Below are positions 48,062-50,824 of a stretch of DNA of 64,000 nt, piece after piece. The stretch spans positions 64,001 to 128,000 of IMG/VR virus record IMGVR_UViG_3300037067_002413; one strand, written 5' to 3'. Both the position numbers and the translations under genes were made by a program. Positions within the stretch are counted from its first letter, which is position 1. Every line of letters begins with the position of its first letter. This stretch comes from a virus (Duplodnaviria; Caudoviricetes). The notes under the pieces are model-generated. The model was not told the origin of the DNA, did no database searches, and saw nothing but the letters and a program-made list of their open reading frames with translations.

Positions 48062-48110
48062 AGGAAAGTTCACTTTAACCGGAAAGTTTTTGTAACCGTC
48101 AAACTTTATC
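48062..48110 (+). promoter_or_regulatory. iteron block upstream of the RAMP gene (copy of 37752-37804)
   Basis: ggaaagttcactttaaccggaaagtttttgtaaccgtcaaacttt. Confidence 0.6.
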
Positions 48111-48198
48111 TATGTAATAGACGAAACTCATTATACCCAGATTCACAAACCATTTCGGTTTGACTGGTTTTAAGGTTCCCTAGAGTAAGGAAAGAATT

Positions 48199-48774
48199 AT
48201 GTACAAGCAGATGACGTTCCGTGTCCGTGGTGTCTCGCCGCTGATTATGCACAATCCTCAGTTGGCAGACCCGCTCAATTCCTTTTCCAAGGACTTGAAG
48301 AAAATCACCAGCAAGAGGAAGAAGACCGACGAAGATTACGCCGAGATGGCGCGTATTGAGTTCCTCGGCGGTCTTTATCTCGATGAGGACAACAAACCGT
48401 GCATCCCTGGTGAGACGATCGAAGCGGCTATTGTAGCCGGTGCCAAGAAGAACAAGATGGGGCCGGCGGCAAAGTCCGGTATCATCGTGGACGGCAACTT
48501 CCGCCTTGAGTACAAGGGACCGAAGACGCCGGAGAGCTTGTTCGCCGACGACAACTTCCGCAACACGTCTCGATGCCGTGTCGGCAATAGTGCCGTCATG
48601 CGAACTCGCCCGATCTTCAAGGAATGGGAATGTGAGTTCGTGGTCAATTATCTACCGGATGTGGTCAGCGAAGAAGATGTGATCTCATTCGTTGAAAACG
48701 CAGGGCGGCTTTGTGGCTGGGGCGATTGGCGTCCCCGGCATGGCCGCTTTGAGGTTCTCCAACAGGCTGCATAG
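48199..48774 (+). CDS. stand-alone RAMP / Cas7-like RNA-binding protein (putative guide-RNA effector)
   Basis: beta1 FRVRGVSPLIMH, PCIPGETIEAAI (cf. RAMP P.IPGSSLKG), RTRP.F.EW, C-terminal glycine loop AGRLCGWGDWRPRHGRFEV; TAAGGA RBS. Confidence 0.75.
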   Translation: MYKQMTFRVRGVSPLIMHNPQLADPLNSFSKDLKKITSKRKKTDEDYAEMARIEFLGGLYLDEDNKPCIPGETIEAAIVAGAKKNKMGPAAKSGIIVDGNFRLEYKGPKTPESLFADDNFRNTSRCRVGNSAVMRTRPIFKEWECEFVVNYLPDVVSEEDVISFVENAGRLCGWGDWRPRHGRFEVLQQAA

Positions 48775-48782
48775 GAGGTATT

Positions 48783-49256
48783 ATGCCAGTTGTAACCTCT
48801 ACCCATCCGTCGCTTATCGACGTATGGCAGTTGGCGAAAGGTGATTATATTTCGCCAGAGTTCCTGGAAGGTTTGACCGGGTTTCTGCGGTACACGCAAG
48901 ACTATAGCTTCGCTATGCTTTCGTTACGCGATGACCTTGAGCGCAGGCTAGGGGCCATTGGAAACCCAGTCACAATCAAACAGGAAGACCAAGGTCTGCG
49001 TCTTCTGACGGACAGCGAGGCAGCGGAATACAATGCCCACCGAGGAAACAAACTCCTTGGGCAAATGGGTCGCGCTCACAAGCGCAACCAAGCCGTTGAC
49101 TCGAACAACCTGTCTCAGGAAGAAGACCACCAGCACCTACGGAACTTGCAAGTCCAAGGAACCATCCTGTCTTCCGCGAAACAAATCAAGCGGCAATACC
49201 GCATGAAATCGTTTCAGCGAAGGACGCCTGGTCTCCCGGTTGCAGTTCAAGCGTGA
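48783..49256 (+). CDS. hypothetical accessory protein of the RAMP-array locus
   Basis: AGGAGG RBS overlapping the RAMP stop; lies between the RAMP gene and the array. Confidence 0.7.
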   Translation: MPVVTSTHPSLIDVWQLAKGDYISPEFLEGLTGFLRYTQDYSFAMLSLRDDLERRLGAIGNPVTIKQEDQGLRLLTDSEAAEYNAHRGNKLLGQMGRAHKRNQAVDSNNLSQEEDHQHLRNLQVQGTILSSAKQIKRQYRMKSFQRRTPGLPVAVQA

Positions 49257-49263
49257 AAACGCA

Positions 49264-49299
49264 GGGCGGTCGTCGGGAGACCGGCGACCGCCCATTTTT
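49264..49299 (+). terminator. GC hairpin + T-tract between the genes and the array
   Basis: gggcggtcgtcgg-gaga-ccggcgaccgccc-attttt. Confidence 0.7.
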
Positions 49300-49300
49300 A

Positions 49301-50582
49301 AGAAACCGCTTTACAACAAAAGGCGGTTTTCTAAACGAATAAGTTGGGGTTAGGTGATGTCTGATCCCGTCCAGTGGGGCGATGTGAAGTTTGGTTCTTT
49401 TAACGAAGCCGTCTTGCAAGAGACGGTTTCCTTTAGCGAACCTGTGGTTCGATGCGGTCTGGTACGGTATGGTCGGCAAGGTTGTGTGATGTAAGGTTCT
49501 CTGAACGAAGCCGCTTCGTAAGAGGCGGTTTCCTTGAGTGAATCTAACCTGGGGTTGGCTTGGGTGAAGTCTGGTCGGTCAAGATGATGTATGGTTCTCT
49601 GAACGAAACCGCTTCGCAAGAGGCGGTTTCCTTGAGCGAACCTGCGGTATTTTGTGGTATGGTGACGTGAAGTACGGTCGGGCTATTTGATTTCTTTGAC
49701 GAAGCCGCTTCGCAAGAAGCGTCTTCCTCAAACGAATCTGCGGTTCGGTCAGTCATGGTCAGTTAATGTGTGGTGGAGTCATGTAAGTTGCGATAAATTA
49801 GGGTTCCTTTAACGAAGCCATTTCGCAAGAGATGGTTTCCTCAAACGAATCTTTGATATGGTCGGTTCCTGTGCAATATGTTGCGGTTCACCAAGGTAGT
49901 GTGGGGTATCCTAATGAACGGTTTGGTTCCTTTAACGAAACTGCTTCGCAAGAGGCGGTTTCCTTGAGCGAATCAACTTTGGTCGAGTCGTGGAAGGTAG
50001 GTTGTGGTGAGGTGATGTAATGAACGGTGAGGTTCTCTGAACGAAACCGCTTCGGAAGAGGCGGTTTCCTTTAGCGAATCTAAATCAAGGTTCGGTGCGT
50101 TGAGTGGCGGTTATGTTAGGTCTGATACGGTAAGTAAGGGCGAGGTTTTCTGAACGAAGCCGTTTCGCAAGAAACGGTTTCCTTGAGCGAATCAGGTCTG
50201 TCGAGGTTGTTTTGCGGTGGGGTGGGGCAACGCATGGCTGTGCATGATTGGGTTCTCTGAACGAAGCCGTTTCGCAAGAAACGACTTCCTTGAGCGAATC
50301 AACTATGGTACGGTCAGTCAATGTGTAGTATGGTGATGTATGCTGCGATGAGTTAAGGTTCGTTTAACGAAACCATTTCGCAAGAGATGGTTTCCTCAAA
50401 CGAATCTGTGGTAGAGTAGAGTCAGTTCTGGTATGGCAGATTTTGGAAGGGTGGAATTTGGTTCTCTGAACGAAACCGCTTTGCAAGAAGCGGTTTCCTT
50501 TAGCAAACCTAAGTTAAGACTAGGTTGAGTGAAGTGATGTGTGTTGCGATCCGGTCTGGTATGGTCATGTAATTTTAGGTTC
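49301..50582 (+). ncRNA. repeat-spacer RNA array: eleven 50-nt hairpin repeats (+1 degenerate leading copy) and 12 spacers made of (GGT-like)NN pentamers
   Basis: Repeats start at 49393, 49495, 49593, 49689, 49802, 49925, 50031, 50144, 50251, 50357, 50460; consensus GGTTCTCTGAACGAAGCCGCTTCGCAAGAGGCGGTTTCCTTGAGCGAATC; spacers 46-73 nt. Confidence 0.9.
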
Positions 50583-50585
50583 TAT

Positions 50586-50620
50586 GCCGCCTGACGGAAT
50601 AATCCGTGCAGGCGGCTTTT
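50586..50620 (+). terminator. intrinsic terminator closing the array
   Basis: gccgcctg-acgga-ataa-tccgt-gcaggcggc-tttt. Confidence 0.75.
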
Positions 50621-50824
50621 CGTTTCTTGCTGGCACTCTAGGAAACTTCGTGCCAACCGGAAACTTTCTGTAGATTCCTCAGTTTTCTCAATTGATAGTC
50701 GATACCCTTTGTACGCAGATTGGGCAACCGAAAGAGACGACCAACACTCGTCCCGGAACATCCCGTGCAATTAGTATAGGCGACCATTTCAAGGATCAAA
50801 AGAGTTTGTAAGAAGGAGAAGGAC

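What the first reader, a model, noticed from the sequence alone, without database searches (positions are those of the whole stretch)
49393..50509. Array repeats covary as an RNA structure with a GNRA tetraloop, fixing + strand RNA function
Seen: the inner stem GAAGCCGCTTC-GCAA-GAGGCGGTTTC varies in ways that preserve pairing: GCCATTTC/GAGATGGT (49802), ACCATTTC/GAGATGGT (50357), GCCGTTTC/GAAACGGT (50144), GCCGTCTT/GAGACGGT (49393), ACCGCTTT/GAAGCGGT (50460). The loops GCAA, GTAA and GGAA are all GNRA. An outer stem GGTTC/GAA(T/C)C closes each repeat and extends to GGTTCGTTT/AAACGAATC at 50357. The many G-U pairs work only on the + strand. Inference: selection acts on RNA structure, and each repeat is a processing or loading handle (host RNase III-like or RAMP-mediated cleavage), unlike near-invariant CRISPR repeats.
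Basis: partly seen in the sequence, partly recalled or inferred. Interest (0 to 1): 0.75.

Follow-up and report, generated by a model that had tools for sequence, protein, structure and literature searches.

The report
Hairpin tails of phage VIPR guide RNAs
The eleven covarying hairpin repeats are real; they are the structured 3' tails that end each guide RNA in a phage VIPR system, a CRISPR-like RNA-guided DNA-silencing system first described in 2026, so this is a new example of a known kind.

Summary
Eleven 50-nt repeats (49393-50509) fold as one long hairpin of 5 bp, 5 bp and 11 bp separated by two 1x1 mismatches, and all eleven have GNRA loops. In the window 95.7% of pair cells are paired on the + strand against 85.7% on the - strand (27 against 4 G-U pairs). 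Compensatory changes persist across 29 copies from four independent phage loci.

The gene at 48199-48774 is a clear homologue of the solved SUSP1 Vipr protein (PDB 36pp, E 5.6e-40) and its model has a Csm3/Cas7-like fold. The "spacers" are 5-nt-periodic GGT-NN tracts of about 9-15 units.

The locus is therefore a VIPR system (bioRxiv 10.64898/2026.04.26.720920, .720927 and 2026.10.15.759431). It comprises vipr, a vap-like gene and an array of 11 vrRNAs, plus a 12th whose tail is the terminator hairpin. The repeats are the vrRNA 3' tails.

Compared with SUSP1, the tail is a long tetraloop hairpin instead of a pseudoknot. The units also abut with no linker, promoter or U-run, which implies processing from one precursor. 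That processing is inferred, not shown.

GNRA is not conserved in relatives (19 of 29 loops; sister clades use UUCG). Targets remain unknown. This scan has already found VIPR loci on other DNA (28 notes). Verdict: a new member of a known kind.

The parts
48063..48086 (+). Dispersed promoter-like box upstream of vipr (GGAAAsTT-n-TAACCGGAAAs); a second copy lies at 50641-50664, just after the array terminator
   Evidence: Five + strand matches in the window against 0.08 expected. Its function is inferred.
48199..48774 (+). vipr gene: 191-aa Vipr protein, a minimal RAMP/Cas7-like protein
   Evidence: phmmer against PDB 36pp_D 'SUSP1 Vipr protein', E 5.6e-40 over the full length. Family profile E 2e-52. 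AF2 model pLDDT 93.8. Foldseek best hits are Csm3/Cas7.
48783..49256 (+). vap-like accessory gene (157 aa), conserved next to vipr in relatives
   Evidence: Homologues follow vipr or its array in L017, L021, L023, L007, L001 and L002. Similarity to the Felixounavirus gene downstream of vipr is weak (E 0.016; hhalign E 0.0019, probability 15%). No Pfam, PHROG, PADLOC or PDB hit.
49264..49298 (+). Intrinsic terminator after vap (13-bp GC-rich stem followed by a T-run)
   Evidence: -30.8 kcal/mol, z -7.0.
49297..49335 (+). Degenerate tail-like hairpin followed by a U-run, with no guide tract upstream
   Evidence: Partial hit to model R1, 19.5 bits. Fold -13.9 kcal/mol, z -4.9.
49336..49392 (+). 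Guide tract 1 (GGT-NN-like pentamers)
49393..49442 (+). Tail 1 (GCAA loop)
49443..49494 (+). Guide tract 2
49495..49544 (+). Tail 2 (GUAA loop)
49545..49592 (+). Guide tract 3
49593..49642 (+). Tail 3 (GCAA loop)
49643..49688 (+). Guide tract 4
49689..49738 (+). Tail 4 (GCAA loop; the most diverged copy, starting GATTT)
49739..49801 (+). Guide tract 5 (paralogue of guide 10)
   Evidence: family D3
49802..49851 (+). Tail 5 (GCAA loop)
49852..49924 (+). Guide tract 6
49925..49974 (+). Tail 6 (GCAA loop)
49975..50030 (+). Guide tract 7
50031..50080 (+). Tail 7 (GGAA loop)
50081..50143 (+). Guide tract 8
50144..50193 (+). Tail 8 (GCAA loop)
50194..50250 (+). Guide tract 9
50251..50300 (+). Tail 9 (GCAA loop)
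50301..50356 (+). Guide tract 10
50357..50406 (+). Tail 10 (GCAA loop; extended outer stem)
50407..50459 (+). Guide tract 11
50460..50509 (+). Tail 11 (GCAA loop)
50510..50582 (+). Guide tract 12, ending in GGTTC like the other eleven
50586..50625 (+). Terminator hairpin plus U-run that ends the array and stands in place of a tail for guide 12
   Evidence: -24.8 kcal/mol, z -3.95. The same arrangement is seen in L017.

Best explanation
The locus 48063-50625 is a phage VIPR (Viral Interference Programmable Repeat) system. It comprises vipr (48199-48774), a vap-like gene (48783-49256) and a head-to-tail array of 12 guide RNAs (vrRNAs) on the + strand.

Each vrRNA has a variable guide tract of about 9-15 pentamers with consensus GGT-NN. 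The tail folds as a three-segment hairpin: a 5-bp outer stem whose 5' strand GGUUC is also the last pentamer of the guide, a Y.C mismatch, a 5-bp middle stem, an invariant C.C mismatch, and an 11-bp inner stem closed by a stable tetraloop.

By homology with the SUSP1 system, Vipr protomers polymerise on the GGY motifs, present the NN dinucleotides for gapped pairing with DNA (two bases read, one skipped), and silence rival mobile elements. [quoted passage not shown]

Shown here: Vipr homology, pentamer periodicity, the tail structure, its covariation, its strand, and the architecture of the array. Inferred: the array is made as one precursor that ends at the 50586-50625 terminator. It would then be cut at or next to the 3' base of each hairpin, because the next guide starts immediately there and there is no room for a promoter or a U-run. 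The hairpin would then protect the 3' end and position or nucleate Vipr.
For: - **Vipr homology.** phmmer against PDB 36pp_D 'SUSP1 Vipr protein' gives E 5.6e-40 over residues 3-186. A 30-sequence profile gives E 2e-52. The AF2 model has pLDDT 93.8 and a Csm3/Cas7-like fold.
- **Guide tracts.** Lag-5 and lag-10 identity are 0.44 and 0.41 against about 0.25 at other lags. Pentamer positions 1-3 are G 61%, G 64% and T 74%, while positions 4-5 are close to uniform. Relatives carry crisp GGTNN or GGCNN tracts directly after vipr.
- **Published description.** vrRNAs are 9-16 GGY/NN repeats plus a conserved structured 3' tail. A pseudoknot caps the 3' end in the cryo-EM structures, and the consensus tail is treated as what makes a vrRNA competent for Vipr complex formation (bioRxiv 10.64898/2026.04.26.720920.720927 and 2026.10.15.759431).
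- **Tail structure.** 95.7% of cells pair in the window. Across 29 tails from four loci, 94.7% pair on the + strand against 86.7% on the - strand, with multiple compensatory pairs. Single-sequence folds of L048 and L007 tails give the same 5/5/11 hairpin.
- **Wider clade.** L021 and L023 (Vipr 61-63% identical) keep a long hairpin that starts at GGTTC, but with unrelated stem sequences and UUCG loops.
- **Specificity.** R1-type tails occur only in this array within the 146-kb phage genome, and always on the vipr strand next to vipr in other loci.
- **End of the array.** A terminator closes it.
Against: - No expression data exist. No RNA run is listed for this phage, so the transcripts, their ends and their processing are inferred.
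- In a fixed register only 37% of pentamers are strict GGY. Many are TGT, AGT or GAT, and there are register slips. Some guides may therefore be weak or decaying, although SUSP1-like wV8 guides also contain AGT, TGT and AAT units.
- A strong terminator lies between vap and the array (49264-49298), and no promoter for the array was identified.
- No convincing natural target was found.
- Homology of the vap-like gene to SUSP1-type vap1 is not established.
Confidence: 0.88

Rival explanations
1. The hairpins are mainly transcription-unit or 3'-end elements: weak intrinsic terminators or exonuclease blocks. On this reading they are not specific Vipr handles or processing signals, and each merely defines and stabilises the 3' end of a vrRNA.
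For: In SUSP1-like wV8 each tail is followed by a U-run and each unit has its own promoter-like box. In L001 and L002 the tracts end in GGTTTTTT. The last guide here uses a plain terminator hairpin as its tail. The degenerate copy at 49297-49335 carries a U-run. Loop identity is not conserved.
Against: No U-run follows the 11 tails. The U-rich stretch lies inside the stem, and the next guide starts at once, leaving no room for a promoter. The invariant mismatches (C.C and Y.C) and the invariant ACGAA and UUCCU blocks across four loci point to specific recognition rather than a generic hairpin.
Confidence: 0.12
2. The repeats act as DNA: palindromic protein-binding sites such as iterons, a centromere or an origin, with the G/T-rich spacers as filler.
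For: The repeats are imperfect palindromes, so the - strand also folds (model R1 hits it at 20-49 bits). The region has no coding potential and shows strong GC skew.
Against: The G-U asymmetry (51 against 10 G-U cells; 94.8% against 86.7% paired across 24 tails) is meaningless for duplex DNA. Orientation is fixed relative to vipr in every locus. Homologous loci make small RNAs that co-purify with Vipr (paper). Spacing varies from 96 to 123 bp.
Confidence: 0.02
3. The array is a decaying, largely non-functional VIPR remnant, and the hairpins persist only through recent duplication.
For: The GGY motifs are degenerate and show register slips. A terminator lies between vap and the array. No targets were found.
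Against: The 92%-identical relative L017 carries a different set of 11 tails that keep pairing through compensatory changes. That is evidence of purifying selection on structure, not of drift. vipr and vap are intact. 5-nt periodicity is maintained in both arrays.
Confidence: 0.06
4. The array is a CRISPR-like or anti-CRISPR (repeat-mimic) array, or a type III toxin-antitoxin RNA array.
For: It has a repeat-spacer layout with hairpin repeats.
Against: There are no cas genes and no PADLOC hits. Repeats vary (82% mean column identity). The 'spacers' are pentamer-periodic. No Rfam family matches. The partner protein is Vipr, not a ToxN-like nuclease.
Confidence: 0.01

Closest known systems
Type II VIPR system of Escherichia phage SUSP1 (Vipr + vap1 + vrRNAs; PDB 36pp; bioRxiv 10.64898/2026.04.26.720920, 10.64898/2026.04.26.720927 and 10.64898/2026.10.15.759431)
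   Same: Vipr homologue of the same length, about 40% identical. A small gene follows vipr. Guide tracts are 5-nt-periodic GGY-NN. A conserved structured tail lies 3' of each tract. The system is phage-encoded and the array lies downstream of the protein genes.
   Different: The tail here is a 50-nt three-segment hairpin with a tetraloop, not the roughly 40-nt hairpin-plus-pseudoknot. There are 12 guides against 4. Units abut without the per-unit promoter-like box and U-run seen in the SUSP1-like phage wV8, so maturation from a precursor is implied. The GGY motif is more degenerate. Homology of vap is uncertain.
Other published VIPR array architectures (hammerhead-interspersed, staggered, single-vrRNA; same preprint, figs S18-S20)
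   Same: Multi-guide arrays in which the units must be separated. Tails and punctuation differ between clades.
   Different: No hammerhead or other Rfam family is present in the array. The punctuation here is a plain long hairpin.
Class 1 CRISPR crRNAs with a 3' repeat hairpin (Cas6-processed, e.g. types I-E and I-F)
   Same: A variable guide capped by a 3' hairpin handle. A RAMP-fold protein polymerises on the guide. The array of guide-plus-hairpin units lies head to tail.
   Different: There are no cas genes, no acquisition machinery and no Cas6. The guide is read discontinuously (GGY bound, NN read). Hairpins vary within an array and covary. The period is 5 nt rather than 6 nt.

Membership tests
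VIPR system | Vipr protein (minimal RAMP) encoded at the locus | tested here: met
   E 5.6e-40 to the SUSP1 Vipr chain 36pp_D over the full length. Profile E 2e-52. Csm3/Cas7-like fold.
VIPR system | vrRNA guide tracts of about 9-16 tandem GGY/NN pentamers on the vipr strand | tested here: met
   12 tracts of 46-73 nt. Lag-5 identity 0.44 against 0.25. Consensus GGT with variable NN. The motif is degenerate: strict GGY in 37% of fixed-register units.
VIPR system | Conserved structured 3' tail after each guide tract | tested here: met
   11 tails with covariation-supported structure. The 12th guide ends in a terminator hairpin.
VIPR system | Adjacent accessory (vap) gene | tested here: inconclusive
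   A conserved 145-157-aa gene accompanies vipr in 7 loci. Similarity to the Felixounavirus gene downstream of vipr is weak.
VIPR system | Encoded by a phage or provirus | tested here: met
   The record is a 146-kb virus genome, 100% complete by CheckV. Neighbouring genes are a phage sigma factor, ThyX and an integrase.
VIPR system | vrRNAs are expressed and bind Vipr | not testable with these tools
   No RNA run is listed.
VIPR system | Guides match DNA targets by the 1-nt-skip rule | tested here: inconclusive
   No hit above shuffled controls in the phage's own genome or in related loci. Guide 12 gives a 20/20 match in a tape-measure gene on three homologous viral contigs, and a reversed control pattern gave 0 hits, but only four guides were scanned and the hit is not statistically secure.
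SUSP1-clade pseudoknot tail | Tail of about 40 nt with hairpin plus pseudoknot, followed by a U-run | tested here: not met
   All 50 nt are used by one hairpin and no U-run follows. The wV8 tail differs in sequence and form.
CRISPR array | Near-identical repeats, unique non-periodic spacers and associated cas genes | tested here: not met
   82% mean column identity between repeats. Spacers are pentamer-periodic. No PADLOC hit for the two proteins adjacent to the array; Pfam gave no cas-domain hit among ten neighbouring proteins.
Rfam RNA families (hammerhead and others) | Match at the gathering score | tested here: not met
   Only three tRNAs in the window, and none in the array.

The most novel reading that the evidence does not exclude
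In this VIPR clade the tail hairpin is a true maturation signal. A polycistronic array of 12 abutting guide-plus-hairpin units would be cut exactly at the 3' base of each hairpin, by Vipr, by the vap-like protein or by a host double-strand-specific RNase. This would be a Cas6-like crRNA maturation step in a system proposed to predate CRISPR. The first strand of the hairpin doubles as the last GGYNN unit, which would couple folding of the tail to loading of the terminal Vipr protomer.
Probability: 0.3. Interest if true: 0.6.

Novelty: new member of a known kind. Interest (0 to 1): 0.35.

Why it matters
VIPR is a newly described RNA-guided DNA-silencing system proposed as an ancestor of CRISPR RAMP effectors. 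This locus adds a large array (12 guides) whose tail structure is supported by covariation across four independent loci. It shows that the tail is a clade-specific module: a long tetraloop hairpin here, against a pseudoknot in SUSP1. Its abutting units imply a maturation step that the papers I read do not describe for type II arrays. The conserved C.C mismatch and the ACGAA/UUCCU blocks give concrete positions to mutate when asking how Vipr recognises its own RNAs. The kind of system itself is already known, and this scan has met it many times.

Tried and rejected
- **Rfam:** a scan of the whole window found nothing in the array.
- **Phage DNA search:** blastn of the array against 50,697 phage records gave no match.
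- **Loose tail pattern in viral contigs:** 13 of 14 hits were chance, and only L007 was real.
- **Model R1 over 80 further Vipr loci:** only L048 carries this tail type.
- **Target prediction by the 1-nt-skip rule:**
  - Nothing scored above shuffled controls in the phage's own genome, in related loci or in the two candidate target phages, apart from guide 12.
  - Exact 10-unit patterns for guides 1 and 7 gave 0 hits.
  - Guide 10 gave one hit, in an epimerase gene of a 35% GC contig; this is probably chance.
  - Guide 12 gave three homologous hits in a tape-measure gene, with the skipped base at codon position 1 rather than the wobble position.
  - A reversed control pattern gave 0 hits.
  - The candidate target phage shares no detectable similarity with this phage.
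  - I treat the guide 12 match as a lead only.
- **RNA evidence:** no RNA holder is listed for this sequence.
- **Phage-encoded RNase III:** none found.
- **vap homology to the SUSP1-type gene:** inconclusive. There is no PDB, Pfam, PHROG or PADLOC hit.
- **Early ideas dropped** once the Vipr match appeared: a TRAP-like ring binding pentamers, G-quadruplex arrays, Chi or primase site arrays, and ribosome or CsrA sponges.

Full report
**1. The observation**

The region 49379-50575 holds 11 copies of a 50-nt repeat spaced 96-123 nt apart. Aligned with 5-nt flanks (A1), they show 82% mean column identity.

I tested a 21-pair structure:
- a 5-bp outer stem, GGUUC/GAAYC;
- a 1x1 Y.C mismatch;
- a 5-bp middle stem;
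- an invariant C.C mismatch;
- an 11-bp inner stem;
- a tetraloop.

On this structure 95.7% of 231 cells pair and 6 pairs change on both sides. None of 500 column shuffles reached the observed paired fraction or covariation score. Sliding the 3' partners by 1-3 columns drops pairing to 35-60%. RNAalifold predicts the same structure without guidance, and every copy folds into it on its own. All eleven loops are GNRA: nine GCAA, one GUAA and one GGAA.

The strand argument also holds. The + strand has 27 G-U cells and the - strand would have 4, giving 95.7% against 85.7% paired.

One caveat applies. Copies within an array are not independent. Units 5 and 10, guides included, are 85% identical duplicates (family D3), so their shared variant is one event.

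**2. What it is**

The flanking genes are phage genes on the + strand: a sigma factor, ThyX, a 191-aa protein of PHROG 4652 and a 157-aa protein. The window belongs to a 146-kb virus record, judged complete by CheckV, from landfill or groundwater metagenomes.

Relatives of the 191-aa protein in viral contigs are followed directly by strictly 5-nt-periodic GGTNN or GGCNN tracts. In L007 they are followed by the same hairpin.

The family is large (815 hits at E <= 0.001), and none of the 120 hits listed carries a functional name or a Pfam domain. Even so, a profile of it hits one solved structure, PDB 36pp 'SUSP1 Vipr protein', at E 2e-52. The window protein alone gives E 5.6e-40 over its full length. 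Its AF2 model (pLDDT 93.8) is closest to Csm3/Cas7 subunits.

The literature search led to three 2026 preprints on VIPR systems. According to them:
- Vipr is a minimal RAMP.
- vrRNAs consist of 9-16 GGY/NN pentamers followed by a conserved structured 3' tail.
- Vipr polymerises on the GGY motifs, and the NN dinucleotides read DNA while skipping every third base.
- The consensus tail is treated as what makes a vrRNA competent for Vipr complex formation.

The "spacers" in the window fit this description. Lag-5 and lag-10 identity are 0.44 and 0.41 against about 0.25 elsewhere. The pentamer logo is G 61%, G 64%, T 74% and then two variable positions, with 9-15 units per tract.

The eleven repeats are therefore the 3' tails of eleven vrRNAs. 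A twelfth guide tract (50510-50582) ends in GGTTC like the others, but is followed by the array's terminator hairpin and a U-run. The 92%-identical relative L017 has the same arrangement.

**3. Independent support for the structure**

A covariance model built from A1 (R1) finds tails on the vipr strand in four places:
- this array and nowhere else in the phage's own genome;
- the array of L017, with 11 different tails (Vipr 92% identical; L018-L020 carry the same array);
- L007, with 2 tails;
- L048, with 5 tails (Vipr 59% identical), the only positive among 80 further Vipr loci.

Across these 29 tails, 94.7% of cells pair on the + strand against 86.7% on the - strand. Several pairs show three or more standard pair types. 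Examples are pair 24-45 (GC, AU, CG), pair 25-44 (CG, UA, AU) and pair 26-43 (UG, UA, CG). L048 and L007 tails fold on their own into the identical 5/5/11 hairpin.

The next clades out, L021 and L023 (Vipr 61-63% identical), keep a long hairpin that starts at GGTTC. Their stem sequences are unrelated and their loops are UUCG.

Selection is therefore on a long, stably capped hairpin. GNRA itself is not required: only 19 of 29 loops have it, and the others are UCAC, ACAG, AGAA, UUGC or larger loops of five to six nt. The C.C mismatch and the ACGAA and UUCCU blocks that flank it do stay constant, which makes them the best candidates for specific recognition. That last point is inference.

**4. 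How it most likely works**

By homology, Vipr coats each guide tract and the tail caps and identifies the RNA.

The organisation of the array is specific to this clade. In the SUSP1-like phage wV8 each vrRNA has its own promoter-like box and a U-run after the pseudoknot. Here the next guide begins at the base right after the hairpin, often with the pentamer UGCGG. No U-run follows and there is no room for a promoter. The only strong terminators lie before the array (49264-49298) and after it (50586-50625).

A dispersed promoter-like box sits upstream of vipr (48063) and again just after the array terminator (50641). None lies between vap and the array.

I therefore infer one precursor RNA, made by read-through or from an unrecognised promoter, that is cut at or near the 3' base of each hairpin. 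The nuclease is unknown. The phage encodes no RNase III, and nothing here tests whether Vipr or the vap-like protein cleaves RNA.

The outer-stem strand GGUUC is also the last in-register pentamer of each guide. Tail folding and binding of the terminal Vipr protomer may therefore be coupled (inference).

**5. Targets**

Applying the published 1-nt-skip rule gave no hit above shuffled controls in the phage's own genome or in related loci. Four exact 10-unit patterns were scanned against viral contigs:
- Guides 1 and 7 gave nothing.
- Guide 10 gave one hit in a low-GC contig, which is probably chance.
- Guide 12 matched 20 of 20 bases in the tape-measure gene of three homologous phages or proviruses. 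A reversed control pattern gave 0 hits.

In the guide 12 match the skipped base falls on codon position 1, not on the wobble position that the paper reports as typical. No other guide hits those phages, and they share no similarity with this phage. This is a lead, not a result.

**6. Comparison and verdict**

The locus meets the defining features of a VIPR system that can be tested from sequence. The vap homology and the targets remain open. It is not a CRISPR array, not a known Rfam family and not a SUSP1-type pseudoknot tail.

The proposed cleavage mechanism is untested, and the emphasis on GNRA is too strong.

This scan has already reported VIPR loci on other DNA (28 notes), including one with tRNA-like tails. 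Tail diversity is therefore a recurring theme. I rate this a new member of a known kind, with a tail and array layout that differ from the characterised SUSP1 example.

Noticed in passing
window 49757-49858 and 50312-50413: Units 5 and 10 (guide plus tail) are 85% identical duplicates whose guides differ at several NN positions. New guides may arise here by unit duplication and divergence, possibly tracking variants of one target.
   Followed up: partly
window 50523-50572 (guide 12); L034:583-611, L035:1681-1709, L036:6479-6507: Ten consecutive NN dinucleotides of guide 12 match, under the 1-nt-skip rule, a site in a 1442-aa tape-measure-like gene of three homologous viral contigs (one provirus, one complete 45.7-kb phage). 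A reversed control pattern gave no hit. The skipped base is codon position 1.
   Followed up: partly
window 27109, 37757, 45024, 48063, 50641 (+ strand): A dispersed box of about 24 nt (GGAAAsTT, five variable bases, TAACCGGAAAs) occurs five times against 0.08 expected, always on the + strand in intergenic positions. It is probably a promoter or regulator site for the phage-encoded sigma factor. It brackets the vipr-vap-array unit.
   Followed up: partly
window 48693-48708 and 49254-49269: An exact 16-nt repeat, TGAAAACGCAGGGCGG, lies near the 3' end of vipr and again at the stop codon and terminator start of the vap-like gene. It may be chance or a trace of a duplicated terminator.
   Followed up: no
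L017:2277-2447: The 92%-related phage encodes a CsrA-family protein (Pfam PF02599) a few genes upstream of its sigma factor, ThyX and vipr block.
   Followed up: no
L048:3600-4190; L007:246-447; L001:6228-7173; L002:4614-6055: The position of the vrRNA arrays varies between relatives. They lie between vipr and vap, after vap, or upstream of vipr, whereas the window has all guides after vap. L001 uses GGC pentamers where the others use GGT.
   Followed up: partly
window 49297-49335: A degenerate tail-like hairpin with a U-run sits directly after the vap terminator with no guide tract before it. It may be a remnant tail or a second terminator, and it suggests that tails and terminators are evolutionarily related.
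   Followed up: partly
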